Shown: piece by piece, positions 4,431 to 58,165 of the stretch | How positions within the stretch are numbered: position 1 is the stretch's first letter | How the letters are laid out: each line of letters opens with the position of its first letter | Made by a program: the position numbers and the translations under genes | The notes under the pieces: generated by a model | Told to the model about the DNA's origin: nothing | Database searches by the model: none | What the model saw: only the letters and a program-made list of their open reading frames with translations | DNA from: Camelus dromedarius | Taxonomy: Eukaryota | Direction: 5' to 3' | Assembly: GCF_036321535.1 (NCBI RefSeq) | Contig: NC_087436.1 | Span: 28,832,001-28,896,000 of the forward strand | Length of the DNA stretch: 64,000 bases

Positions 4431-4659
4431 TCTTTTTAGTTTGTGGGTGTAGCTCATATAATTTACTCTCAAGCCAAAAACACAGTTAAATAAAATACTC
4501 TTTTCCTGTAACTTAAATTCTGACTCAAGTCATCATACAACTGTTGGCTGCTAAGTATAAACTTAATATTAGATAATGAATAGTTTTCTTAGTCTTTTAT
4601 AATTTTCTCACTTCCTGCTTCCTTGTCTACCTCCTATGTTACATGGTCTTACCTAAGAT

Positions 4660-5933
4660 TGGTGAAATAAAAATCCACATTTTAAGACAAGACAGAAAAA
4701 AGTTAAACATAAAACTTTTTCATTGCCCTTTGGACTCCTCTCTCTGCTATACCGTGCATTGTGCACCTTCATTAAGTGTTAACCAGACCTCCCCAAAGGC
4801 AGAGATACCTGCTCAACCATAAAGATCAACTTCTCTTCTTCTGACGCCAGCCATGTAGTTTCTCAGAAAACAACATTCCTTTCACAATCCTGTAAGGGGT
4901 CATGATGACCCACCATCTGCCTTGTACATGCAGACATCTTCAGTGAACTTTATATACAATTCCAATATATCACTTCCATTAAAGACAGTGATTGGTGCAG
5001 AATAGACTGGTCAAACTGGGGAGGTACTGGGCTGCACATAATGGAAGTTTTAGCTTAAATACTTATGACCTTATTAATATTTCTAGCTATATTACTTGTA
5101 TTCTGCCTATTTTACAAGATTATTGTTTATTGCATTACCAAATGTGTAACTGAGCCTCAGATAAAATTAATGACAATTAGATGACTTGAAACAATTGATC
5201 AAAAATATGATTCTATAAGATTAATCACTGTAATAGTGTAACTCTAGATGGGGGGAAGAAGCAACAAGAGGGAACCAGTTTCTGGACCATAACAGACTAG
5301 TTAGACAGGTGGTCCAGAGGCCTTCAGTTACTGTTAACAAGACCTAATCCAGTAATAGCACATTGATTGGCCTATCAACAAAATGCTCACCTGACCTGGG
5401 AATGAGAATTCCTGGCACCGCAGGATTAATTGGTCATGAAATGCCTCCCAAACCTTGGTCAAAATTAAGGCCAAAAGGGAAGGAATTGCCCACCATCCAG
5501 TTCTAGAAGAATCGAGTCATTAGCCACTGCAGTCACTGACCTAAAACACACCCTCAGAAGAATTCAAGGTGAGGATCTGGTTGAGGCACTCTGTGCTCTG
5601 GGAAAACTGGCAGAACAGGCCCTCAGATAGTTAGATATTTTCAAAAGAAAATTTTATGAACCCAGTTTCTTGCACCTTCCCCTACTTAAAAAAGCACTAA
5701 AACCATAATTAGATGTCTGCTCGTCTTGACTAGAAGCAATCATATACTGAGCTGTGTGTTCAATTGCAGGCATCCCCTTCACTAACATCACATCTATACT
5801 CGCCTCCCCCTTTACCTCTTCAGAGCAGTTCCCAGAGCTCTCTGAGGGACTGTCTCCTGGTTTATAATCTTCACTCAAATACAATTTTCCATTTCTTTCT
5901 TAGATTCACTATTGATTAAATTTTTTGTTGGCA
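4660..5933 (+). mobile_element. Long (~1.27 kb) ERV1-type solo LTR, probably lineage-specific
   Basis: Approximate TG...CA termini (ends TTTTTTGTTGGCA). The 3' part CCCCTTTACCTCTTCAGAGCAGTTCCCAGAGCTCTCTGAGGGACTGTCTCC is typical of ERV1/MER4-group LTR R-U5 regions. Family not assigned. Confidence 0.6.
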
Positions 5934-8900
5934 GAATATACAAACCTTTGGATATGTGCAGTCATTATCTGTCCAGTGGTCTTACATTTTAAGATGTCTC
6001 TGTTTCCTCCATGAGCTTTCATTCCCAGCATCTGTTCCCTCTGGCATCTAATAAGATACCCATAGCCAGAGCATCACATACACTGTGACTTTATACCAGA
6101 TCCTCTGGCTCTCTCCTGGAACGTTTAGGCTTCTCTGTAAGGTGACTGCATGTTCTGTTTTCCCTGGACTGGATGGTTACTGGTGGATTAATAATCATCC
6201 ACCCTTTTATTCTAAGAATTTTCTCAGTTTGAATAATAAATGTTATCTTCTCATTTGAATATTCTCCCTAATTTGAGCCATAGGGATTGGAAAGTTTTTC
6301 AGGTCCTCTCTGCCTGAATCTTTCCTGACACTGTGTCATCAATCCTGCCTTCACAGGATGTTGCCATAAGAGATGTTTCTACAAGACTCCCCATTTCTCA
6401 GAGTGTCAATGTCAACTGAGACCCAGGGCTCTAGCAACCTTTTATTCAAGCCAAAGCCTATCTGGGGTTTTACTGTTTCTGACTGCCTGAAGAGGGAGTG
6501 TCTGATAGGCACGGCCCAATTTCTCAATTTATGTCAGCCAATAACTAATTGCTTTCCCTTATCTTTCTAGTTTTTGCTTGGTAAGGAAATGGAGAGATTG
6601 GCTTTTGCAAAAAAAAAAAAATTAGTAGCTGAAGCCCTAGGCTTTGATTCCTTTGGGGGTTTGCTTTTGATATGTAAAAAACAGGCTTTCTAAATTCCAA
6701 AACATTTTCTGTCTCAAAAAGATTTGCCCTTGCACATCAAAACTCTGCTTTTCAAGGCTATTCAGATACTTAGAAGTGTGTAATTTGACTCAGTTCTTTG
6801 CACTCTGTTACAGAAATCCCCACATGAGGCAATAGCCCCAGACAACTTAGCCAAAGCAACAGATTAAAAGAACCACATCATCTCCGTTGGTGTGTGTGGA
6901 TCTGTGTATGTGTTCATGTATGTGTGCATTTTTTTCTTTTTCTAACATATCAGATAGAGATCAAGTGAAATATTGTATGTGAAAAGGTCGTCTTCATAAA
7001 ACTGGTCATGAAGTGATCAAACGACAGATCCAGAGCCATCATTATTGATGAAGGGTTATTTAATTTATTAGAAAGGACATGCTGTGGAGCTAGGGAAGAA
7101 CAGGGTAATTATTTTCAGCTCTTAAGCTGAATAAAAACTTGCTCCCAGCCCAAAGGATTAAAAATATTGTTCACACACTCATAACAGCAGAAGGCAGGTT
7201 GTGGATGTAAGAACGCAGCCGGCAGATAAAATTCCATCAATCACAGTAATTCAGAATGTTCAGGTTAGAGACAGAGGCTAAGAGACGCAACTTCACCATT
7301 AAATAGTAAAACAGGAAGCCAGCATTTTGCATACTATATTGGAAGGAAGCAAAACTGCCCGGAGAAGACAATTGAAAAAGATGAGGTGTTTCAAAGACTG
7401 TGCTTTGACCCAGTGTCTAAGCAGAGACTGAGACCCCTGAGGCAGACATTCAGCCTAGAGAGCAAAGCACAAGAACTTTACTTGAATCTTCACAAAAGGA
7501 TCCTATCAACCTTGAAAAAGAAGCATCAAGAACAAATTAAAAAATAAATTATTCAGATAGTTACACCAAAACATTAGGGAGGAAAATTAGAGCATGTCCT
7601 ACTGCATGTCTTTTTTTATTAAAACAATATGTATGTATTTGGCAATGTGTGTTTCTCATTTCAAATAGTGCAGTAATTTCAATAAACTATTTTGCAGTTT
7701 TCATAAAAATTTACAACTTTCAGCTAATATTGTACATAGTTACTTGGGTGAAGGGATTCTGTCTAGCTCTAATAATAAAGATTTTTTTCACCTAACATAG
7801 GCTAAATCCATTAATTAGCAATTGTTACCTAAAGTAAATTTTATCCTTTCTGTGCTATACTCTAATAAATACAAAGTACTAAGTGAATTAAAGAAATAAT
7901 AATACAATAGCATAAAATGATAATCACATTAAAAGATCTCAGCATGGCCCGTTTAACGTAACAAATTTTACTTCGAATCCCCCCTTCACAGAGTCCCTTT
8001 CAGAACTCTCAGATGGCACAAACCTTGTTAGAGCAAAATCCATGAAACGCATGACAGCGGGGCATTCTTCTTCCTTCCATCCAGAGCCCCTGCATCTTGA
8101 GTATCCTTCTGAGATGAAACTCTAACAGACTACCCTTCTTCTTGAACCCTTGACCTCATATCCTTTAAGTGGATAAGGTATTAGTGTATCAATATTTTAT
8201 TGAAATCCTATAATAAGCAACATACGCATTACATTTCTAGGATAAGGAAGGGGACCGTTTTAGTAACAGGAATTAGCACGGTATTGAGTAGGAGGACATT
8301 TGACTCCATGGGTCATTCTTCATAAGTCAAAATTCATTTAGTAATAGTAAAGCAGAAGAATGTGGGTAAGGGATCAATAAATAATGTACTCTCTTCAAGC
8401 TATAGGAGACACAAATAGGATTAAATCAATCACAATGAAGTTTATGTTTATAATATATTCTAATTTATTTTTAAAAAGCAATACCTGAAATGTCAATGGT
8501 GAGTCGGGAGGCAGGGGAGCTCAGGAGGTGATGTGACTTCACTGGGGATGACTTTGCATATCTCTGACTGCAATGGCAGAGATGGTGTTAATTTTAAAAC
8601 TAGGGGCTTTGCAATGGTTCAATAACTCTGTAGGCATCATCCGGGAATACTACCCTCCTTGTCCTTGACAGCAAGTATTATTCAGTTTTCAGGAAAAAGC
8701 TCAAGTCCTAGTTCCTTCAAGACATTTGATTTGTTTTGTCTCTTCTGACCTCTAGTGATCACTTTGTTCTTTAAGCTCCTACATTTCAGGACCACACCAT
8801 TTGCTCTGTGATTTTACATTGTGAATTTTTGGCCTTAATAGCATAATGTAAGTTTGCAGTTTCATCTGCATAACCATAAGAATTTTGAACTCAGTGAATA

Positions 8901-9264
8901 TGTCTTACATTTCCTTTTATTCTACAAAATACCCTAAACAGTGAGGGTTGCACAGAAATTGCATAAAAATATATATAACAGAAATGGTTGGACTGTACTA
9001 AACGAGCAATGTATGACTAGAAGTTAGAAGAATATTGGGTTATAAGGCATGGTTTCTCAGATTTCCCAGGCAATATTTTTGACCTCTCTAGCAGAACAAA
9101 TGTCTCCTTAATTAGGATTAATATACAAAATAGCATTAGATCAACCTTGTCAATAATGTCATTTCTTTGATGACACAGCTCAAACACAGCTCACTGTAAG
9201 AACTCTCCTGAAGTATATTAACTCGGGAAACTTGCAGCGTCGTAAGTAGCATTATGAGGGGCAA

Positions 9265-9640
9265 CCACCCATGGAGCGCCAGGCTGTGTGCTAGGTGTGA
9301 GGCATTCCAAACGGTATCGAAAAAGGGCACCACGCCTTACGCCTTACATGCCTTATGATTCTTGACAGTTTGCTACGGAACAGACATAATAAATACTGGC
9401 TATGAGTGAAATGCATATACGTTAAGTGAAAGAAGTATCAGTGGACCTTTTTCATATTTTTGATCCAAGAACATCTCTATCAGAAAGCAATATTTAAGCC
9501 CTGGATTGAAGAAACAGATGGAGCTAGGAAAAAAAAAAAAGAAAAGAAAAGAAAAAGAAACTGCAAAGATAGGGAAGGATTACGTATGTTTTAGAGTAAA
9601 TAAAAGGTGGACTGAAGCTTAGTGCAAAGGAGGAGGGTAT
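9265..9640 (-). mobile_element. L2 fragment with an embedded A/AAAAG tract
   Basis: GCCAGGCTGTGTGCTAGGTG start is L2-like; A-rich run at 9529-9560. Confidence 0.4.
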
Positions 9641-9659
9641 GAGAGAAGGTTGACATATT

Positions 9660-10350
9660 ATCTATTCCTCATTCATATTGTTCCTTGAAAGATCACATGT
9701 TTCAGGCACACTGCTTGTTATTGGGAAGACAACAGTGACACTTGTCAAGTATTACCTACTAGGTTTTTGTTCGAGTTTATACTCTAGTAGTAGAGACATA
9801 TGTCAACCAAGTGATCGACTGAAGAGTGATCGAGTTGGATTCTTTTCAAAATTGAAGCTGAGTTAACTGCAAAGATAAATAGTATGACTCATTTTAAGTA
9901 TAGGACAAGGAATATGTCTACATTGGTAATTTGCAATGATGCAACAAAGGAACAGTCTTAAATTGGGAGGTCAGTAAACGTTTCCCTGAGAGAAATTCTT
10001 AAACTGAGGTTGAAATTAAAAATGGGAGCTAGTATGAAAATGGGGATTTAAAGGAAAGAGCATGTGGAAGAATGTGGGAGGGAGCATATTTCTAAGAAAT
10101 CAGTATTAGGTCAGTGTAGCTGGGGTACAGGGAACAAGATGGAGAACGCCTCAGGAGCCATATGCAGTATCTTCTAGACCACGTGAAAGATTTATGTATG
10201 TAGAAGATATATGTGTGTGTATATATATATATAGTATATATATGAAATTTATATATACTTTGTCTCTTTGGATTACAAGGAAGCCATTGAAGTATTTTAA
10301 GCAGGAGCAATGACATGATCAAATTTGCATTTTGAAAAGATCATTAGAAC
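9660..10350 (-). mobile_element. L2 LINE 3' region
   Basis: Ends in the recognisable L2 segment GGAAGCCATTGAAGTATTTTAAGCAGGAGCAATGACATGATCAAATTTGCATTTTGAAAAGATCA. Confidence 0.7.
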
Positions 10351-35372: not shown

Positions 35373-35452
35373 GGGGGGAGGATACAGCTCAGTGGTAGAG
35401 TGTGTGCTTAGTATGCATGAGGTCCTGGGTTCAATCCCCAGTATCTCTGTTA

Positions 35453-35532
<80 letters not shown>

Positions 35533-35591
35533 TAAATAAATAAATATTATTACTACCCCCCAGAGAAAAATTTGTTTTTAATTTAAAGAAA
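35373..35591 (+). mobile_element. Camelid tRNA-Ala-derived SINE (Vic-1 type)
   Basis: Head GGGGGGAGGATACAGCTCAGTGGTAGAGTGTGTGCTTAGTATGCATGAGGTCCTGGGTTCAATCCCCAGTATCTC resembles tRNA-Ala(AGC), with A and B boxes. It has an A-rich body and tail and a 15-bp TSD with 2 mismatches (AAGAATCTGTGAATA 35357-35371 / AAGAATATGTGTATA 35592-35606). Confidence 0.9.
35452..35545. repeat. Compound (TAAA)n(TAAG)n(TAAA)n tetranucleotide microsatellite within the SINE
   Basis: Seen directly. Confidence 0.95.
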
Positions 35592-36209
35592 AAGAATATG
35601 TGTATACAGTGTTCAGTATAGAATTTATACATTTTTAAATTATTGTTTACCATGAAAATTATAGACTACCCTTAGACTATTATCTAAAAGTCATTATATA
35701 TGGAGATATAAATTTTAAAATAGCTATTGAATTCATTGGACAATAGGCTGAAACAAGTTGGTTTATTTTAAAAATGGTAACTGAAATCTAAGAACAAATA
35801 ATAATATAAAAATTAAACATATTTTCTTTTTCTTATTAAATTGTTTTGTATTTCAATTTTTTCATATGGCTAAATTAAAAATTAAATTAACTAGAGTTAG
35901 CTCAATAGTAGGAAATAGAGAATAAAAGCAGATCAGCACCAAAGTAAGTGTGCCTTATGCAGAATCAAAAGAGATACTATAAAATATTTTTATTGTATCT
36001 TATTGAAAAATAAACTAAAAAAGAACTATTAATTTGCATCCTTCATGATTTCACTCTGGTTTAAAAAATGCAGTCTTAAATATAAAATAATATTAAAGCA
36101 TTTAATTAACATAGTTTTAATTCCATAATTAAAAATCCAACATTTTAACATATATATACTCTGGAAGGTGACACACGAGCTCATTGAAAGACCAGATGTC
36201 CTAGATGCA

Positions 36210-36395
36210 ATCACTAATTCAAACATTCTTAAAGTGTGTCTACCAGCGTCAGCTGCACTTCTAGGTACCACAGATAGGAGCTGAGCAAAGCAGATCCAAG
36301 TATCTGCTTTCATCAGGAACATAGACAATTAACAAATAACACACCACTGCTGTGTAATTATAACTGTGGTAAGTAATAGCTAAGGAAGTGCGTGC
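36210..36395 (-). mobile_element. L2 3' end fragment
   Basis: TAATTCAAACATTCTTAAAGTGTGTCTACCAG...GCACTTCTAGGTAC...AGACAATTAACAAATAA. Confidence 0.5.
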
Positions 36396-39300
36396 TTAGT
36401 GGATTAAACTAATTTAGTTAGTGACAGGCAACTCCAAACCTGCGTATGTTCGTCACGTACTCCACAAGAGGACGCAGTTTATGCCCTTCCAGTTTCTGGC
36501 CACGCTTCACTGAGAGGAGAGTTTGTTTTAGGCTTTTCCAAGGGCTAGGAAACTATGGAAGCTGTGCCGTCAGGATAGGCGGTCGACCAGTAAGAATACA
36601 AAGCCATATCGCATTTTAAACATTTTTGATATTTAGGTAGAATCAGAGGCAGTACACTTTTAAGGATTCTGAGAGTAAGAATGTGCTGGGGGAAAGAATC
36701 TGGGAAGGATGTTGCTAGTGAGTTATAAAGCAGTGCTAGTGAGTTTGTTTTTTTTTTCCTCCCTAACGTAATGTACAGAATATGTTTATGGGGTGACTAA
36801 TAGGACACATTTTGTGCTAAACACTCTAATAAACACTGTATTGGTTATGTTTGTGGATCTTGCACCCCAAGTAAAGGCAATGCATTGAAATTACGGAACT
36901 CTGAAGTTCAACTCATTTTCAAGTCAATTCAGTTGCCCTTAGATGTTAATTATTTTTTCCCTAGACATGAAACTACATAAGTAATCTGAATTACATTACA
37001 ATTTATGAGTAGTTAGCATAAGACTCCGTGGAAAGTCACATAAACTCTAGAAAACGTCTTAAATTCCAACAGTACTAATGAATACAATAAAGGACAATTT
37101 TCTAAGCATTTAGAGAGTAAAACAAATAAAACAACATAAAAACAATATACCACAAAAACAACTACTGCTAAGGATAAATGGGTGGATGGATAAGCAGCTA
37201 TGTATAAGTGACTGTTTGGAAATGCTAATCACTTTCATTCCTTAACGACGACAGACCGGTATATCCTTTCCCCCTAAATTTTACCTCCCGGTCCCTAAAA
37301 CAGTTTCTACTGTTTAATCATATCAAACTCTTATCATTTTCCATATTAGTCCCCAAAGTTCTGCTGCCCTGCTTCTCTCCTACCTTAACAGTGAGTGATG
37401 TCCCATTCATGTTGTTTTCTACCCTTAAGAAAGGGAAGAAGACAGAGCAACAAACTAAGCTATGCACTTGAGAAAATCAAGTTCAAGTGATCATGGTATA
37501 GCAGGTTAGAGATGCTAGTGTGAGTTCCTGTTTGGAATTTTTCTGAGCACTGGGTTATTTTTAAATCATTCCCACCCGAACTTTGATATAAAAAGGGCCC
37601 ATAAGTTACTGCAAAAACTACATTTTGCTTCTACAGTGGGCACACAGTATCCTTGTTTTCTGACCAAGGATAGTGGCTCTTAGCATAGGAATTCCAAAAA
37701 CACTTCAAGGGAGTGTTGGTAAGAAAAGAAAAATCACAAAGTAGAAAAGCATTATCATCTCATCCATTGATTTTGCACTCAGTGGAAATTTCTGTAACTT
37801 CTATTTCAGTACCAGGATTCCAAAAGTACAGCATGAGGCAAAGGATAATAATGCTATTTAATTTTGAGTGATTATTGCTAAATAAGACTTATGGTAAAAT
37901 AAATGTTTTTACCCAGGGTGGGAAAAAAAAGAACATTGTGAGTCTGAAATGAGAGAACAAATTAAGAAGAACTGGAAAAAGTGCACTTACAATTACAGTT
38001 CCAAAACTACATTGAACTTCATTAAAATACTTTCGGCAGCTGCATTAGAAGTCTGCAGCTTTGCTAATAAATCTGTTCTCTTTTCAGTTCAGATTGACCA
38101 TATGTGAGACACAGTGACAACTGATGGTGCATTTATACTAAAATATGTCACAAAGATGTGTAGGACAAGGATACATTGATTGAACATACAAATGTAGACG
38201 CTTTCAGCAGGTAACCTCACCTTACTTCTTGGAGAATGCTTGGCATGGCAGAGAAAAATTTCAATATGCTTTGACCATAGAGGCACAGGAATTGCATGCA
38301 GCAAGTGTCCCTCCCACCCAATTGTTAGAGTTGCAAGAATCCTTGGAGAGCAACTCTCTGAAATCCAATACAAATTTAGACTCTACACTGTAGCACAACG
38401 TGTCATTGTAAATTATTTAAAACTTCCAGTGAATTCACTGCAGTGTGCATTCACATCTGTCTTTATAAATAACATGTTTTTTCTTCATGTACTGAATTAT
38501 AAAAGTCATAACCAGTTCATCTTGAACAACCCCATCCTTCTTTCTGGCATATTATTCAGCTACATTATTTTGGAAAGATCAGCTTACCTATCACCCTGAA
38601 ATATTCAGGCCCTGGAGATAATATTAGCAAGAAAACATTCCATTAGCAAATGCTGCCCACTCAGTTGCAGGTATTCTACTTTCAACATGTTAAAACTTGT
38701 TTATATCACAATATAATCTCATCTCCCCTGAAACAATGCTTCTTCTACAGTTTTCCAAGGCATTTATAATGCTGACCTGGAAATGCCTTTCAATGTAATA
38801 ACCAGAGACAATAATTTTATATTTATATCCTGGCCAGGCTTAAAGGGTTTTAGTTAATTAGGTTAGATTATTAGTTTTGTTATAGCCTATGGGGAAAAAA
38901 ACTAAAAAAAATTATATTTATATTGAGCTTTTCTTAACTGGGCCCTAGTTCTGAGAAGTTTAGTTTTCATAGAGAAAATAAGTACTTCAACTCAATGTCT
39001 GATGTGTGAACTTTGAATGTTAGCCAGACACTAAGGAATATAATGAAGCAAGTGACCTTTTCATTCTCCAAAGATAGCTGCATGTGATCCCAGATCTGCA
39101 GGATACATGTTTAGTACACACGGTTATATCTAATCATCTTGCTTACCGTGTCTCGGCATGTGACTGGTTTGAGAAAAGCAGCAACATTTTTTATTTAATT
39201 AACTAATCAATGAAATATTGATCTGTGTTGAAAAGTGATACCACATTGCTAATAAAACAGAAATGAATTCAATAAAATGGAAAATCATACTGATCTCAAT

Positions 39301-40545: not shown

Positions 40546-42949
40546 CTGCCATCACAATATACATACACAGCAAACCGCTAGAGCTGATGAAATGGAATGT
40601 TCATTTACTTAGACATTCACCACTGACAACCACCTTGTGAATCGCCCATGTGAGGAGCTGATTTCTGGTTAAAGCAAACATTTATTGTAGGGAGACACAG
40701 AGCAAAGCTTAAGTTATTACATCTCTAAATGAAGCTCGACAAAACTCAGAATGCCAGTTTGAGAAGCGTCAGTACCTACAGGGCAGCCACGTAAACAGGT
40801 GTACAGACACAACATTCACTTGTTAAACAAAAGGTTAAAAAGATGAAGGATGTGTTTTCCTCTTTGATGAAATGAATACATTAAAAAGGTTTATTACTTG
40901 AATAAAGAAATTGCCAGAAATGGACCCTAAGTGGAAGAAAAAAAGGAAACAGGTGTAGAAATAATCAGATAGACCAAGACATTAACTGTGTGCAGAAATA
41001 TATTCAACTCCTGTACTTCACATCCAGTGTTTCAAAGATCTCTGTTCCCCTTACTTTTGTGCCCTCTTTTGCTGCCTTTAAGAATTATATAACATTCCTT
41101 TCTTACTCTTTGCTTTTCTGTTTTCTCTTGTTACCAAAGATACCTCAGTTTTCCTTTGCATTTTTCCCTAGTCTCTCCTGGTCTTGCATCTTGTGCTCAT
41201 ATACCTCCTTCTGCTACTAAACACCCTCCTTAAACTGTAAAGGAGAGAACGAGAGAGCCTGCGAGAACTGATCCAAGTTATGCCACATACAACTAGGAAA
41301 TTCTAATATCACCATATTCAGACTCATGCTGAAACAAAAAGCATGAGTAATAAATGACGAGACAAGGTGGTTCTATCCCCAACAGGAAAATTCTCAAGTT
41401 AGAAAAATAGTCATAAAACTGAGCAGCCTCATAGACAGTAGATTTATGCTTTATAGCTGTTAAAGCCCCACACTTAACCAGCCAGTGGGGCAGAATCATT
41501 CCCATGGATCATAAATCGCCAGCACTTCTACAGTACTCAGTGTTCACCTTCATGTTACTACTAAGACAAATACATACTACCTTGAAGTCTAAGGAAATTT
41601 GCATCATGTGGTAGAATTATATGAATTGCCAACCCAGTTCTCTGGAGTGCCTGCAGATTGTCATAAAACAACAAAAGCAATACTGTATTATGGAAGTGCT
41701 GCTCACAGCACTACTCTTGATGGTGAGCCAAAGTACTGGAGAGCTTTAGAGTTTAGTTAGAGCTTTAGAGTTAGGTCATAAAAGCACATTTGAGCAAGAT
41801 ACAGCTATTTGAAAAGCTTGTGTTCATTTTTCTACGGACCAAATGAAGCATAAAATCTGTGGAAATAACATCAAACACAATGTTTTCCACCTAGTTCTCA
41901 GCAATTTCTAGTAGCCAGGCCCACAGAAAATCACGAGCACTATAAGAGACAATTGACTTTAGAAAATAAATTACTACCTCATCTTTTATCAAGAGAAAAA
42001 AAAATAGAATTAACCCTTTTATAGATATCAGCAACCAAAAATATGCATGGTAACATACTTAAAGTGAAAAACGTAAGATAAGCCTCATTTGTAGTTTTCT
42101 ATTAACATTTGTTCAAGGATCTGTCTTATGGTAATGAGTTACTACCCGCATGTCCCCATGAGAACCCACTGTACAATTAATAAGGTTCCACAATTTACAA
42201 ATGAAGATACTAACATTTTTGTTCTTAACACATGTAAGTAAATCATTTTACATGGTATGAAATAAATTTTATGGTATGAAATAAATTAAAATTATCAATG
42301 ATTGTTTACAAATACTGCTAGTTAATGGAGAATACATGTTCAACGGAGTTAGAAACATCAAGTTCCTGTTAAAAATACTGAGAAATAGGAAAGAATATTG
42401 ACCCTTAAGAGTTAAAGTGGACATAGATACCTCATAAAATTTTAATATTCAGAAGGAATTAAACAGAAAACAAATATATTGACTATCTCTAAGGTTGAGG
42501 GGAAACTCTCATTTGTCATATATTCTTTATATTTTGGATCATTTGAAAACAGATGATTGATTGATTGACTTGGTTTAGAAAACTTTCTTCCCCATGAAGC
42601 TTCAGAAAATTTCCAAACTTGGATGGTCTCTAAAAAGTGGGAATGAGACGCAGGACAGTATTCACAGTAATCAGAACTGGGCCAGGTATCCCACCCCGCC
42701 GTCATTATCGCAAACTCAGAACAGCCGAAGTGCTGGAAAGCAAAAACAGATGCTGCATTCGAAAAAGTTGCCAGAGTTTAGCTAAGGCTCCTGGTGGAAA
42801 TGTTAGGGTAAGTTAAAACCTTTCTGATCGTAGTATATGTATTGGGTTATAAGAGATTGTGCACTAAAGTGAATCCTGCCTGTAAACACTGCTCACGTAC
42901 ATACTGAGCCCTCACAGCCGGCCAGCCCACTGAGAGGAGCCTGACAAAG

Positions 42950-43715
42950 AAATAGGCATACTCAAAGGAGAGGAAATCCCTTCCAAATAGCTGTATTAGC
43001 CAATCTTCTCATTCATTCACAAATGTAAGCCAATAACCAAGTATTGCCAAACAACTGAAGAAAGAAGAAAACAAAAATGAACCACGGAGAAGACAACGAT
43101 ATTCAGGGAACAAGAAGAGTGAAAGGGAAGAGAATTCGACTCAGTATTTCCAGATTGATTAGAGGAACGATTTGCATCTAAAAACACAAGAAAGTACAGC
43201 TACCAAAAAATGAATACTCAAGTTCATGGTAATTAAAATGTAATGACAGAAAAAGTAATAAAAATGTAACACTGAAGAAACCTTCCAGAACATAAAGCCA
43301 AAAGACAAAGCTATAAAAAGAATGAGAGAAAAGGTAAGAGAAGGCAGTATAAATCCAAAAGGTAAAATTTTGCTCTACTGGGAAGTAAAGAAATAGAAAG
43401 AGAAGGAAATAAAGAATGGAAGAAGTACCCACAGGTGTAATGAAAGAAAAAGCCGCGTGTCGGAAAATAAAAGGATTTTGAAGTGAGGCAGCTTCTAATT
43501 GCCAAGCAGCAAAAAAAAAAAAAAAAGAAAGAAAAGAAAAGAAAAAAAGCAAAGCAGCAAAAAACATATCTAAATAAAATTCTTTTTAGAACAAGCTGGC
43601 CACAGAACTCTGAGAAATAAAAAATAAACAATGGGTACATGATAACACAGGGTATGATGACATTTGTGACAGATGGAAGGAAAATGCTTCTTGTATCAGC
43701 AAAAAAGGCGGAAAA
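42950..43715 (+). mobile_element. Old L1ME/HAL1-like ORF1 remnant
   Basis: Extremely purine-rich + strand with ORF1-like segments (GAAGAAACCTTCCAGAACATAAAGCCAAAAGACAAAG...AATGAGAGAAAAGGTAAGAGAA). This explains the Phe/Leu-rich antisense ORFs. Confidence 0.55.
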
Positions 43716-43719
43716 AGAT

Positions 43720-44400
43720 TTGTTCAACAAATAATATTTGAATGCCTGCTATGAGTTAGGCATCATTCTAAGTGCTAAAGCTATATCTTGCATAAAAGAG
43801 AAACAACAGAATTTACCTGATCAATCTTGGAGCAGGAAGGAGGCTATGTGACTGGAGACCAATTGTAGGTAAAGAGTTTAGTTTCACTTGCTCACAGATG
43901 CCGCGTGTAGCAGTCTTATCCCGGGCCCTTCAGATCAGACTTCCTAGTGCAAAACGGATGCACCGGACGCACCAACACCTCAACTCGGGGACCTTGTGCA
44001 GAAGTGCTATGCACAGCACCTCACTTCAAGGTGGTGGCGACGGCGGGCTGAGAGCAGTGACACTGCGCATGTCAGCACAATCCAGAGCGGGAGCAGCACA
44101 GCTGCATGGGTCTCGCGAGAACTCCGCCTCCTCCCGCGGACAAGATCCCAGTGAAGCAACTCAGGCCGGGGCCAGTCACGGAGAGCAGGTAGGCTGGAGC
44201 TCGAGCTCACACCTCTCCTTTCTCTGATCAGAGAGTAAAACTTCCCTTTGCTTCTGAACAGAAAAAAGAAAAAGGTGAACATTTTCTTCATGATACTTGT
44301 ATTCTAAGTGAAGGAAAATAAATAACTAACAAAAAACTAATTTAAGGTGATAAACGCTATCAAGAAATCTGTGTAAGAGGAGGATAAGGACTGATGAGGG
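43720..44400 (-). mobile_element. L2 3' end split by a GC-rich insertion (L2 at ~43720-43803 and ~44264-44400)
   Basis: TTGTTCAACAAATAATATTTGAATGCCTGCTATGAGTTAGGCATCATTCTAAGTGCT lies on the left. TTCATGATACTTGTATTCTAAGTGAAGG...AACTAACAAA on the right continues the L2 consensus order. Confidence 0.6.
43895..44210. promoter_or_regulatory. Small CpG-rich, promoter-like block
   Basis: About 20 CpGs in ~310 bp (manual count) against a CpG-poor background. Perfect TCTCGCGAGA (BANP/'ZBTB33' motif) at 44111-44120, GC box CTCCGCCTCCTCCC at 44122-44135, NRF1-like TGCGCATG at 44064-44071. Confidence 0.6.
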
Positions 44401-44779
44401 TACACCGTAGGGAGTTTGTAGTTTCAGAACTGGAGAACTTAGGGGAAAAAAATCTGCAGACCTAAGTCTGTTCCACTAGGGAAAAAAGGGAAAATTTGGC
44501 AGGATATTGGATCATTAGGGGTCCCAAGTTTATATCCCACTAATAAATGTGCTTTGTTCTCCATATGTAGCAGAAAGACATAGAAATAATTTCAAGAAAA
44601 ACATGCTTTTAATGGTGGTAGTGAAATTGCTATGTGGCATTGGAAAACCAGAGTCTCTTTATCTATAAAGGAAGATTTGGATTTTCCTATCTCGAAATAT
44701 CATCTATCCAAAAAATTCTGTGATATTGCACCCAAAAGTGCACATAAAATACATTTAAGATATGGTTAGCTATATAGAA

Positions 44780-45115
44780 GCATAGTCATTAAAGCACCAT
44801 TTGCAATTACAGAAAATTTGAAACAGTACACAGTTCCATGAATAGTGGATTGTTTCAAGAATGTTATTTCTTGTTAATAATGTATGTAATCAGTCGTAAA
44901 AAGAATGAGAAGCATATCACAGTATATTATTCACTAAAACAAATATCAAGTTAAAATGTAATATAATGCCATCTTCTACTGGAGATACACAAAACACTGT
45001 TAGTCGTGGTAAAAGAGAAGGTTATATATTGTGTAGGTCTTACATAGCTTCGTAATTTTTCTTTACTATGTGCAATTGTTAGTCTTAAGACTTTCTTTAC
45101 AACTAATTAAAAATA
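44780..45115 (+). mobile_element. Old L1 (L1ME-like) 3' UTR fragment
   Basis: AAGCACCATTTGCAATTACAGAAAATTTGAAACAG...TCCATGAATAGTGGATTG. Confidence 0.45.
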
Positions 45116-47119
45116 AATGAAATTATATGTACAGAAATAAAAGGCATCCAAAACACCTTAAATTTTAAAAACGTTTTCATAAAAATATGAGACTATGATT
45201 TCAATTGTAGGAAATCACAAAAGAGTACTGGATAGCTTATAAATATATAATTAAAAATATACTTTAAGGCATATGAAAATATAAGTAGCATACATACAAA
45301 ACTGTTATTTGTGAAGTTCTTTGAGGAGAACTTTAGAATCAGGGCTGCAGGAAGAAGAAAAACATATGAAAAATAACTAGCCATCCATTCATTTCTGGGT
45401 TTTTTTCATTATTATTTAAAAATAATATATTTATTCTACAAAATAAAAGTAAATGGAGAATATATGTATGTTTATAGCTGTATAAACAACTGGAATAAAT
45501 ATATACATGACTTTTTTTAAGAGAATTCAACTCTGCATTAGAAGTTAAGCAAATTGGAATTTTACTGGTTAATTATAATGTTTGTATTACATCTGTTTAC
45601 AAGGGGGATGTATTGTTTTATAACATTTTAATACAGATACCTATGGGCAGTATAAATATAGTTAGCCATTTACAAGTGTTACGCAGAAATGTTCAGATAC
45701 TAAACTTTGATTAGATAAAAGCAGTATTTATCAGTGATGATTTGGGAAATTTTCACCTATTTGTGAAAGTGAACGTTCTCCCTGCAATGTATAGCACTAT
45801 AGATTATTTAACTGATGAATGCTTAATTTTTTTATTAATCTTAGAACTGGTCTGTTCAGCCTACAATGTCATCTTTAAAATATATGGACAGATGGTGGGA
45901 ATCAATTTAAATGGGTTTTTTTTTAAATGAAACAGACATGCAAAAATATGCAAGATAGAAAAAGGTATTGAGTCCATTAGTTCCCAAAACTAAAGCCACA
46001 TATTGAGAAAGTCAGTCAGCTCCCCAGCAGTGTGGCCTGCTACCCTCTGAACACTAACTGATAGCAAAATACATTTTTGTGACATTTGGATCACTGTATC
46101 TTAGACTCTTTAGAGTATATTAGCCTGCGCTGTAGCTAATAAATCCCTAAACAAAGGCATACTTGTCAGTTTTATCCAAAAAGAGGAGAGAAATAGGATA
46201 TTCCTTAATCTTAGTCCTATATTTGGGTAATTCAGAAATAAAGGGTCATTTTATACAAAGATTTTAACCCTCATCCTTAGGAGCATTGTCCACACCAACT
46301 GATCAGTTCAATTTCTCCTTGTTTCTTTGGTCTCCAAGAAATTCTTTAGAAACTTTTGTCCCAATTTAATGCAATTCAGCAAACATTTAATTCGATCTAA
46401 TTGCTTTTGAAATCCAGAAATCACAACCCTGACATAATAAACTTGAAAAATTAGCTACTGGTCATGCATGGGCTCCAAAAAAATGCATATTTTCTCAGTT
46501 TCTTTAATAATGATATTTTAAAGTAGTACAATGTATTAATCTTTTATACAAAATTCAGTGAATTTTCTTGTTCATTTTCATGACAAATATGACACTGGCC
46601 AAAATAATAAAATTTTATTAATCTAAAGTTGTTCATGATGTAGACATATCCAAAGAAATCATTTTATGGTAGAAATAGAAATCTCTGAATTGGTTGGGTA
46701 ATAGCCATAAAATTTTCCATTTAAAAATATTTAGCTGCTGATTAATGTGCCATGCCATATGCCAAGTTTCATTTTGTATTTTCTAACTTGTATTTCTGAG
46801 CAAAAATTGAATGAGGAAATTGTCTAATTTAAATTTTCACTAGTATTTTTTGCTGTGTAAAATTCAGACCAAATATCTATAGACATGCCCTAGAAAAACT
46901 TGTAAGCTAATTTAGAGTCTTTAATTTAGAGTAATTTGCAAATGCAAGCTAAAATAGAGTCTATGTCATCCAAACCATTAGTGACACCTGATGATCAATC
47001 GACTAAGACTATCCAAGGAGTGGCACATCTTCACACACTTGCCGCCGAGGTGATAGGTGTTAAAAGCTGAGAATATCCTAGGCTTCAGGAAGCCATTTCT
47101 ACATGGTCCACAGGCACAG

Positions 47120-56784: not shown

Positions 56785-58165
56785 TTCTACTTCTGACAAC
56801 GATAGGTTTATATTCTAATCTGAATATAGTACAAAAAGCACCCATCTGATAGTGCTAATAGGTGGATATATTCACACGGTCTTTGATGGGTGTATGTATT
56901 CAGAGGAGGAAAGGGTTACTATGTAAAGGGGATTCCTTTTCTTGTGCCTGTTGGTCTGGGACTGAGCGCAGTTGAAAATGTGAGAGATGAGACAGGGTAA
57001 AGGTAGATAAAATAATAATCTTTCTCGAGGGAACCAGAAAACTTAAGGTAGGAAAACTATGGCTGCTGGAAGGAAGTGTTAAATTTTAGAGAAAAAAAGA
57101 TCCAGGAAGGAGATACCTAAATTTTGTCTAATAAAATTTCTGACTCCTGCACCAGGAATGAACGAACAGATTTAAATTAACTCTGCTAAAGACAAAATAA
57201 CACAACTGCATCCAGAGTTGTAACATAAGAAACAGAGTTTATAGATCAAGTTCTGCTGAGATAATTGCCCACTAAAGGAAAAGAAACAACACACACTGAA
57301 AAAAAATGACAAAATAAAAATCTCCACACTCTGTAATATTCATGATGTCCAGGATAAAACTCCAAATATACTGATGTTAGAAGAACTTTTAAGGTGGAAC
57401 ACATTCTCAAGAGAAAAGAAATCAATCGAGATCAAATTTGACATGATTATGTTGATACTAGCAATCCAGGATTGTAAAGGGATTATTATAACTCTCCTCA
57501 CTGAAGCCAAACAAAATATATTTACAATGATGGGAAAGATAGGAAGTATCAGTAGAGAAAAAGAAATGGTAAAACTAGTCAACTGCAAATTCTAGAAACT
57601 GAAAGTGCAAATTTCAAAATTAAAAAAATTACTGGATATAATCTCTCCATGGAATTGATAGAGAAATTAGTGAATGACATAGAATATAGGTCAGTAGAAA
57701 TCATAAAGTTAAAGAAAAGAAACAGACATAAAATGCTAGATTTAAATTTAACTACATGAATAATTACGTTAAAAACTATAACTAAAAGAAATAAATTGTC
57801 AGAATAGATTAATAATAAAGAAAAACACAAACAAAACAACACCCAAATATATGTTCTACAAGAGATGCACTTTAAATGTAAAGACACAGATAGGCTAAAA
57901 GCAAATGAATGGAGAAAAATAAAACATAGTAATTATAATACAGGTGATATGGTAATATTAATATAAGATAAAATAGAGTCAAAACAGAAAGTATTGCCAG
58001 ATTTAAAAAGGGAAGGGTAGTTCACGATGATAGAAGCTCATTTCATGAGATAAGAGTCATAAGTGTGTATGTTCCTATAACAGAATTTCAAAATACACGA
58101 AGAAAAATTGACAAAATAAAAGAAAGGAATGAATAAATTCTCAATGATATATAGAATTTTTTCAA
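56785..58165 (+). mobile_element. Old L1 (L1MC/L1MD-like): 5' region, ORF1 and ORF2-endonuclease remnants
   Basis: ORF1-like AACAAAATATATTTACAATGATGGGAAAGATAGGAAGTATCAGTAGAGAA and endonuclease-like CCCAAATATATGTTCTACAAGAGATGCACTTTAAATGTAAAGACACAGATAGGCTAAAAG. The same L1 appears to continue at ~59065-59100 and 60620-60750. Confidence 0.75.

What the first reader, a model, noticed from the sequence alone, without database searches (positions are those of the whole stretch)
43794..44273. Promoter-like CpG block inserted into an L2 fossil, with retroposition-like ends (candidate retroposed promoter)
Seen: the only clearly CpG-rich segment of the window sits between two pieces of one antisense L2 that are consecutive in consensus order. 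It is flanked by AAAAGAGAAA (43794-43803) and AAAAGAAAAA (44264-44273), a 10-bp direct repeat with 1 mismatch at a T|AAAA site. The variant polyA signal AGTAAA (44234-44239) lies ~22 nt before the A-tract. Established: L1-mediated retroposition gives A-rich TSDs at TT|AAAA-like sites. Inference: a + strand RNA crossing some gene's CpG-island promoter (e.g. a divergent or antisense transcript) was retroposed here, moving promoter elements that ordinary processed pseudogenes lack. The TSD is low-complexity and the tail very short, so a DNA-level duplication is also possible.
Basis: partly seen in the sequence, partly recalled or inferred. Interest (0 to 1): 0.7.

Follow-up and report, generated by a model that had tools for sequence, protein, structure and literature searches.

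The report
Retrocopied retroviral LTR end in L2
The CpG-rich block is most likely not a copied gene promoter but the promoter-bearing tail of an old endogenous-retrovirus-type repeat, pasted in as an RNA copy by LINE-1, which is a known kind of event.

Summary
In detail: a 460-bp CpG-rich block splits one old repeat whose flanks rejoin. The 10-bp direct repeat is real but weak alone (p 0.03-0.09). The gene-promoter reading fails. In whole-genome contigs, 47 contigs pile up on the block's last 60 bases and some also match short collinear pieces back to 43875, so 43875-44263 belongs to a dispersed repeat family. At least 32 of these contigs run on past 44259 into shared non-A sequence, whereas this copy stops 20-24 nt after AGTAAA and enters the A-tract. 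That is the U3-R-poly(A) anatomy of an L1-retroposed LTR-terminated RNA, as in HERV-W processed pseudogenes and HML-2 rec retrocopies. Family likeness starts at an AG that in other copies follows a pyrimidine tract, so the 71-nt head may be a spliced-on exon. That the family is an LTR is inferred; I could not see its ends or name it. No close source copy appeared, so the event is old. Weak hints (one A-tailed sister contig, raised flank CpG, one RNA contig branch at a minus-strand donor) leave open several such copies or reuse as a promoter.

The parts
43718..43793 (-). Left piece of the interrupted old repeat (L2 3' end, antisense; name recalled)
   Evidence: Aligns to positions 12-69 of the in-window profile alone and continues across the junction when rejoined
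43794..43803 (+). Left copy of the probable target-site duplication, at an AT|AAAA site
   Evidence: Sequence; chance level 0.03-0.09 taken alone
43804..43874 (+). 71-nt head of unknown origin; candidate 5'-truncated upstream exon of the copied RNA
   Evidence: Unlike the sequence that other family copies carry before 43875/43879 (table 7: 4 X12 contigs, 1 X16 contig); no significant match to the block's body or the rest of the window
43875..43876 (+). AG where family likeness begins; candidate splice junction
   Evidence: In family copies this AG ends a YAG that follows a 15-nt pyrimidine run (table 7, tool consensus of 4 contigs, agreement 0.76; read by eye)
43875..44263 (+). Diverged member of a dispersed repeat family, read as U3-R of an ERV-type LTR lacking U5
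   Evidence: 47 X12 contigs at 44231; depth 421 against 11 in flanks; short collinear matches ending at 43897-98, 43960, 44008, 44106 and 44135 in contigs that also match 44194-44259
43895..44205 (.). CpG-rich core with promoter-like motifs: TGCGCATG 44064-44071, palindrome TCTCGCGAGA 44111-44120, GC box 44124-44131 (minus); NRF1 and BANP labels recalled
   Evidence: each motif occurs only here in the window
44194..44263 (+). Best-conserved family segment (R-like), 9-20% different from the 12 listed sister pieces
   Evidence: table 8
44234..44239 (+). Variant poly(A) signal AGTAAA, inside the family-conserved segment
   Evidence: table 3 lists majority differences only at 44231 and 44244
44260..44263 (+). 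End of family likeness or remnant of the poly(A) tail (0-4 nt)
   Evidence: 32 X12 contigs leave the window at 44258, 44259 or 44263 into shared non-A sequence (table 7)
44264..44273 (+). Right copy of the probable target-site duplication
44274..44340 (-). Right piece of the interrupted old repeat
   Evidence: Continues the profile to position 156 when rejoined
43817..44078 (-). Speculative minus-strand first exon ending at a CAG|GTAAAT donor
   Evidence: One RNA contig (X18 record 21) spans exactly this range and overlaps its neighbour by 30 nt; one study, contigs only

Best explanation
An old L1-made retrocopy of the 3' end of an RNA that was polyadenylated in an ERV-type LTR. Step 1 (shown): 43875-44263 is one diverged copy of a dispersed repeat family. 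Step 2 (inferred): the family is an LTR, with a CpG- and promoter-motif-rich U3, a conserved R holding AGTAAA, and a U5 that other copies keep. Step 3 (shown for the end point, inferred for the cause): this copy stops 20-24 nt after the signal, where cleavage and polyadenylation occur. Step 4 (inferred, about even odds): an upstream exon had been spliced onto an acceptor in the element; 71 nt of it survive 5' truncation. Step 5 (inferred): L1 ORF2p nicked an A-rich patch of the L2 fossil, primed on the A-tail and left a 10-bp duplication. The block looks like a promoter because U3 is one, and U3 lies at the 3' end of such RNAs. It most likely has no function now.
For: Multi-copy family and its run-on past the A-tract position (tables 2, 3, 5, 7). 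End point inside the 10-30 nt zone after the hexamer, about 3-5% by chance for a 450-700 nt element (simple ratio). Flanks rejoin as one repeat. Direct repeat at AT|AAAA. Head/body border on a YAG after a pyrimidine run (table 7). Same anatomy as HERV-W processed pseudogenes: U3-R 3' LTR, poly(A), TT/AAAA, 5-15 bp duplication (PMC5016936, passages), and as spliced HML-2 rec retrocopies (PMC4351823, passages). One 78-nt DNA contig aligns through the A-tract with 7 differences in 68, a probable second A-tailed copy (table 8, record 5).
Against: I never saw a whole family member: no TG...CA ends, no 4-6 bp integrase duplication, no internal region, no library name. The upstream matches are only 18-33 nt, and the tool warns that such joints at low likeness often come from repeats or other organisms. 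Most of the body is under 80% alike to any copy shown. The tail is 0-4 nt. The direct repeat is low-complexity (p 0.03-0.09). The acceptor reading rests on 5 contigs, and the head itself holds an unused donor-like AG|GTAAAG at 43868-43874. Only 23 of 121 loose-end rows and 29 of 180 pieces were shown, from 4 of 24 listed runs.
Confidence: 0.68

Rival explanations
1. DNA-level event: a fragment of the same repeat family was patched into a break in the L2 by repair, or an ordinary LTR insertion later lost its ends by deletion. The A-rich repeat is then microhomology or chance.
For: Tail of 0-4 nt; family letters after 44259 share A's with the target; direct repeat weak alone. Repair-mediated duplications of up to 619 bp are known (PMC2671141, abstract).
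Against: The end falls in the poly(A) cleavage zone (3-5% by chance); the L2 resumes with no visible loss; no nearby donor copy in the 64-kb window, whereas that paper's cases are mostly closely linked.
Confidence: 0.13
2. Retroposed by L1, but the family is not an LTR: an old L1 5' UTR with internal splice and poly(A) signals, or the last exon of a multi-copy gene or duplicon family.
For: LTR ends were not seen. L1 5' UTRs are CpG-rich and multi-copy (own knowledge). An earlier AI note reports scattered DNA-level gene duplicons in this genome (e1-7791955, not checked here).
Against: A conserved poly(A) signal followed 20 nt later by a GT/T-rich shared stretch, in the best-conserved part of the family, fits an R/U5 border. 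No Pfam, PDB or protein-database match for the block's frames.
Confidence: 0.13
3. One reading: an RNA crossing one cellular gene's CpG-island promoter was retroposed here.
For: CpG o/e 0.69 with TGCGCATG, TCTCGCGAGA and a GC box. The laying tool drops human-like contigs without notice, so a conserved source could be hidden. A host gene might use an LTR of this family as its promoter.
Against: Dozens of sister copies. No long match at 80% or better among the pieces shown. The locus contig crosses the block unbroken with 0 differences (X12 record 2), so no near-identical paralogue is evident.
Confidence: 0.04

Closest known systems
HERV-W processed pseudogenes (PMC5016936, PMC5537654; passages read)
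   Same: 3' end of U3-R form lacking U5, A-rich end, TT/AAAA-like site, duplication of 5-15 bp; very short 5'-truncated copies were reported there too.
   Different: Non-primate genome; family unnamed and more diverged; tail 0-4 nt; only one or two A-tailed copies seen against at least 32 that run on, whereas 135 of 213 HERV-W elements are processed.
HERV-K(HML-2) rec mRNA retrocopies ERVK-30 and ERVK-31 (PMC4351823; passages read)
   Same: Spliced, 5'-truncated, LTR-terminated RNA inserted by L1 with a 10-bp duplication; those copies were later found transcribed.
   Different: [quoted passage not shown] Here the acceptor's place relative to the LTR start and the origin of the 71-nt head are unknown, and no coding frame has relatives.
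SINE-R region of SVA (PMC3287187; passages read)
   Same: A retrovirus-derived 3' module that supplies the poly(A) signal for L1 mobilisation. That it is a roughly 490-bp env-plus-LTR piece is recalled, not read.
   Different: No VNTR or Alu-like part; no evidence that this copy founded a family of its own.
Repair-mediated duplications (PMC2671141; abstract read)
   Same: Insertions of a few hundred bases found because they interrupt an older repeat.
   Different: Those are mostly copied from nearby DNA; here no donor lies in the window and the end coincides with a poly(A) site.

Membership tests
L1-retroposed (processed) ERV/LTR copy | 3' end truncated at the R/U5 border, downstream of the poly(A) signal | tested here: met
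   Likeness ends at 44259-44263, 20-24 nt after AGTAAA; 32 X12 contigs run on into shared sequence. Calling that sequence U5 is inference.
L1-retroposed (processed) ERV/LTR copy | Poly(A) tail | tested here: inconclusive
   14-nt A-rich run at 44260-44273, of which 10 nt are the duplication and up to 4 nt may be family sequence
L1-retroposed (processed) ERV/LTR copy | Target-site duplication of 5-15 bp at a TT/AAAA-like site | tested here: met
   10 bp with 1 mismatch at AT|AAAA; p 0.03-0.09 alone; flanks rejoin as one repeat
L1-retroposed (processed) ERV/LTR copy | Collinear with a spliced or unspliced viral RNA | tested here: inconclusive
   Head/body border at a YAG acceptor in 5 contigs; source of the head not found
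ERV long terminal repeat family | Dispersed multi-copy repeat with promoter-like 5' part and internal poly(A) signal | tested here: met
   47 contigs at 44231 in one DNA run; 9, 23 and 3 in three RNA-type runs; motifs
ERV long terminal repeat family | TG...CA ends, 4-6 bp integrase duplication, paired copies around an internal region | not testable with these tools
   No genome held; loose ends are cut at 30 letters; collection scans found no mammalian copy
ERV long terminal repeat family | Match to a named Dfam/Repbase family | not testable with these tools
   No repeat library on hand; the camelid library in the supplement of PMC8605555 could not be read
Solo LTR inserted by integrase | Complete U3-R-U5 with a 4-6 bp duplication | tested here: not met
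   The part that sister copies carry after 44263 is absent; the head is foreign; the duplication is 10 bp
Retroposed copy of a cellular gene's CpG-island promoter | A single paralogous non-repeat source locus | tested here: not met
   Dozens of short sister matches and no long one among pieces shown; human-like contigs are filtered, so the test is not complete
CpG island | GC >= 50%, o/e >= 0.6, length >= 200 bp (500 bp in the stricter rule; thresholds recalled) | tested here: met
   Passes the 200-bp rule over about 43843-44313; too short for the 500-bp rule
L2 fossil (flanks) | Both flanks collinear pieces of one element | tested here: met
   the family name is recalled, and the profile came from window copies picked by eye

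The most novel reading that the evidence does not exclude
A camelid LTR family behaves like HERV-W or a nascent SINE-R: spliced RNAs that end in the LTR are repeatedly retroposed by L1, scattering U3 promoter cassettes. This copy stayed unmethylated in the germ line for tens of millions of years and now drives a spliced minus-strand RNA whose first exon ends at the donor at 43817. Hints: a second A-tailed contig; flank CpG o/e 0.36-0.38 (left) and 0.31 (right) against a window median of 0.16; one RNA contig ending exactly at that donor with a 30-nt overlap to its neighbour, about 0.1-0.3% per branch by chance but noticed after the fact.
Probability: 0.12. Interest if true: 0.55.

Novelty: new member of a known kind. 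Interest (0 to 1): 0.24.

Why it matters
As a single old insertion it matters little. It shows how promoter-like DNA can move through RNA without any odd read-through transcript, because U3 sits at the 3' end of LTR-terminated RNA. A review calls HERV-W the sole human ERV group specifically mobilised by L1 and says the determinants are unknown (PMC5537654, passages), and even New World monkey ERV-W shows no such copies (PMC6995185, passages). A non-primate family with many such copies would give an independent case for finding those determinants. My paper searches (listings only) showed no title or abstract start on camelid ERV retrocopies, but they cover open-licence papers only and one search was swamped by unrelated hits.

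Tried and rejected
Whole-genome search: no genome held. Protein-coding origin: the 143-aa open frame over the block has no Pfam match (3 frames), no homologue among 28 candidates of 78-251 aa and no PDB match below E 0.2. Structured RNA: Rfam gave only sub-threshold hits, E 0.087 and 0.75. Family copies in public collections: motif scans found nothing in viral contigs, genome contigs or the first metagenome scan; the second gave 5 loci, none alike to the block, and the 3 of 5 that I read are bacterial coding DNA. Plasmid BLASTN: nothing. No second copy in the window. Motif search in papers: 0. Earlier scan notes: nothing by sequence, near or relatives or first word search. My first idea that 43830-43849 is a polypurine tract plus LTR start: weakened, because family copies differ from the window before 43875. 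Head as an inverted copy of the body (twin priming): p 0.05-0.5 by scoring scheme, not accepted. DNA transposon ends: no terminal inverted repeat listed. Expression: RNA contigs of X16 and X18 cover the flanks about as well as the block, and no joint skips the block or splices within the stretch, so neither transcription nor a polymorphic empty site is shown. X20's only locus contig lies inside the block, but missing cover proves nothing.

Full report
Setting. The window is 34% GC with strong CpG depletion (o/e 0.19) and reads as repeat-rich mammalian non-coding DNA; I read all of it. A tRNA-headed SINE at 35378 resembles the camelid Vic-1 element (recalled), and earlier AI notes on this genome call it camelid. 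No genome is held, so copy number came from public run contigs.

Observation. All stated motifs are at the stated places. The core 43895-44205 has 20 CpG, GC 0.61 and o/e 0.69, the top CpG segment of the window. To test the flanks I aligned 8 other window segments that look like L2 3' ends (picked by eye, name recalled) and built a profile. The rejoined flanks align across the junction at 14.3 bits, each flank alone at 4.8 and 2.1; none of 200 joins in each of four control sets reached 14.3. So the block is an insertion into one older repeat, though the profile cannot place the breakpoints within 20-30 nt. The 10-bp direct repeat has a chance level of 0.03-0.09 by itself; it gains weight only from lying at the edges.

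What the block is. Twenty of 24 listed runs hold the block or part of it, 15 with all sampled words. I laid 4 of the 24 on 42400-45600 at 80% likeness. In the whole-genome DNA run X12 the locus is a single unbroken contig over 43560-45126 with no differences. On top of it, 47 contigs pile up at 44231, raising summed depth from 11 to 421. The RNA-type runs show 9, 23 and 3 such contigs. Ten X12 contigs in the joints table also carry 18-33 nt matches ending at 43897-43898 (5), 43960 (1), 44008 (1), 44106 (1) or 44135 (2), in the same order. By eye, the loose letters before 44203 still match the window at about 20 of 31. So about 43875-44263 is a diverged member of a dispersed family. The 12 listed sister pieces differ by 9-20% (mean 15%) in the best-conserved 35-68 nt and the rest falls under 80%. 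No long match to another place was among the pieces shown (29 of 180, longest kept). At a recalled neutral rate of about 2-2.5 x 10^-9 per site per year this points roughly to 30-60 million years. The tool drops human-like contigs, so absence is not proof.

The 3' end. At 44258, 44259 and 44263, 5 + 17 + 10 X12 contigs leave the window into one shared, GT/T-rich, non-A sequence (agreement 0.61-0.73); the RNA runs show the same (table 7; 23 of 121 rows shown). The window goes instead into the A-tract. The break lies 20-24 nt after AGTAAA, which is inside the conserved segment. A random end would fall in the 10-30 nt zone about 3-5% of the time. This is the form of an R/U5 border: sister copies are DNA-level elements that keep U5, this one was cut at the poly(A) site. 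One 78-nt X12 contig aligns over 44206-44273 with 7 differences, so it too is A-rich after 44259 and is probably a second such copy. Against: the last 4 nt (AGAA) may be family sequence, leaving no tail beyond the duplication.

The 5' end. Family likeness starts at the AG at 43875-43876. In 4 X12 contigs the letters before it are a 15-nt pyrimidine run and CAG, and in 1 X16 contig a T-rich run and TAG; the window has 71 unrelated nt there. A border exactly on an acceptor suggests splicing of an upstream exon into the element. The support is 5 contigs, the head holds an unused donor-like site, and I found no source for it. I give splicing about even odds.

Mechanism. An RNA, viral or a host transcript using an LTR as its last exon, was polyadenylated at the LTR signal. 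L1 ORF2p nicked an A-rich patch in the L2, reverse-transcribed 460 nt and left a 10-bp duplication. Shown: insertion into one repeat, family membership, end point. Inferred: LTR identity, RNA intermediate, L1, splicing. The promoter-like motifs (NRF1 and BANP labels recalled, with a listing tying BANP to a CGCG motif) are then U3 content. Confidence 0.68. Rivals: DNA-level capture or deletion 0.13, a non-LTR family 0.13, a single gene's promoter 0.04.

Comparison. HERV-W processed pseudogenes have a U3-R 3' LTR, a poly(A) tail, a TT/AAAA site and a 5-15 bp duplication (PMC5016936, passages; PMC5537654, passages). Spliced HML-2 rec RNAs were retroposed the same way and are now transcribed (PMC4351823, passages). 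SVA ends in a retrovirus-derived module (PMC3287187, passages). Retrotransposition is known to create CpG islands that influence flanking CpG sites (PMC4509998, abstract and start of introduction), and repeats are known to give host RNAs splice and poly(A) sites (PMC13709765, passages). The block works like these. Membership of an LTR family is met on copy number and layout but untested on ends and name. The camelid repeat library of PMC8605555 (passages) would bear on the name, but its supplement could not be read.

Hints of present use. Flank CpG o/e is 0.36-0.38 on the left and 0.31 on the right against a median of 0.16 and a 95th percentile of 0.33, but other parts of the window reach 0.46-0.52. 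In RNA run X18 one contig spans 43817-44078 and overlaps its neighbour by exactly 30 nt, as contigs do at a graph branch if built from 31-mers (inference). Position 43817 is the last exon base of a minus-strand CAG|GTAAAT donor; such donors occur at 0.00125 per base. Depth bookkeeping leaves room for an unlisted 30-nt piece there, though a further family piece fits as well. A SNP or error would give the same branch, it is one study, and contigs cannot show strand or start. RNA contigs also cover the flanks. I treat this as a lead only.

Verdict. Real insertion; retroposition likely; source is a repeat family, most likely an ERV LTR, not a gene promoter. New member of a known kind; interest 0.24. 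Most novel reading not excluded: a camelid HERV-W-like or SINE-R-like process with this copy reused as a promoter, probability 0.12, interest 0.55.

Noticed in passing
window 43817-44253, minus strand: The A-tract read on the minus strand makes a pyrimidine run and CAG acceptor (AG at 44255-44254), and a CAG|GTAAAT donor lies at 43817/43816, so the insert could be taken up as a 437-nt antisense exon; one RNA contig ends exactly at the donor.
   Followed up: partly
window 43796-44227, plus strand: A stop-free frame of 143 codons spans almost the whole insert, across the head/body border; no Pfam, PDB or database relatives. Probably chance in GC-rich DNA.
   Followed up: yes
window 42300-43793: CpG o/e 0.36-0.38, above the 95th percentile of the window; similar mild rises at about 9000-10250 and 36000-37500 could mark regulatory DNA.
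   Followed up: partly
window 35378-35570: tRNA-headed SINE with an (ATAA)n/(GTAA)n tail, called tRNA-Thr by ARAGORN and Rfam; resembles camelid Vic-1 (recalled).
   Followed up: partly
window 43000-43550 and 57250-58150: A-rich stretches that look like decayed L1 ORF1-region fragments (recalled likeness, untested); the first ends in a long A-tract at 43510-43550.
   Followed up: no
window about 660-1200 and 4560-6800: Segments that look like other ERV LTRs and internal remains (by eye, untested); not alike to the block.
   Followed up: no
window 45344-45380: In run X16 contigs with loose, GC-rich ends match only this short stretch (table 7); origin not examined.
   Followed up: no
L001, L004, L005: Chance motif hits in bacterial metagenome contigs that share one small membrane-protein-like reading frame; unrelated to the finding.
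   Followed up: no
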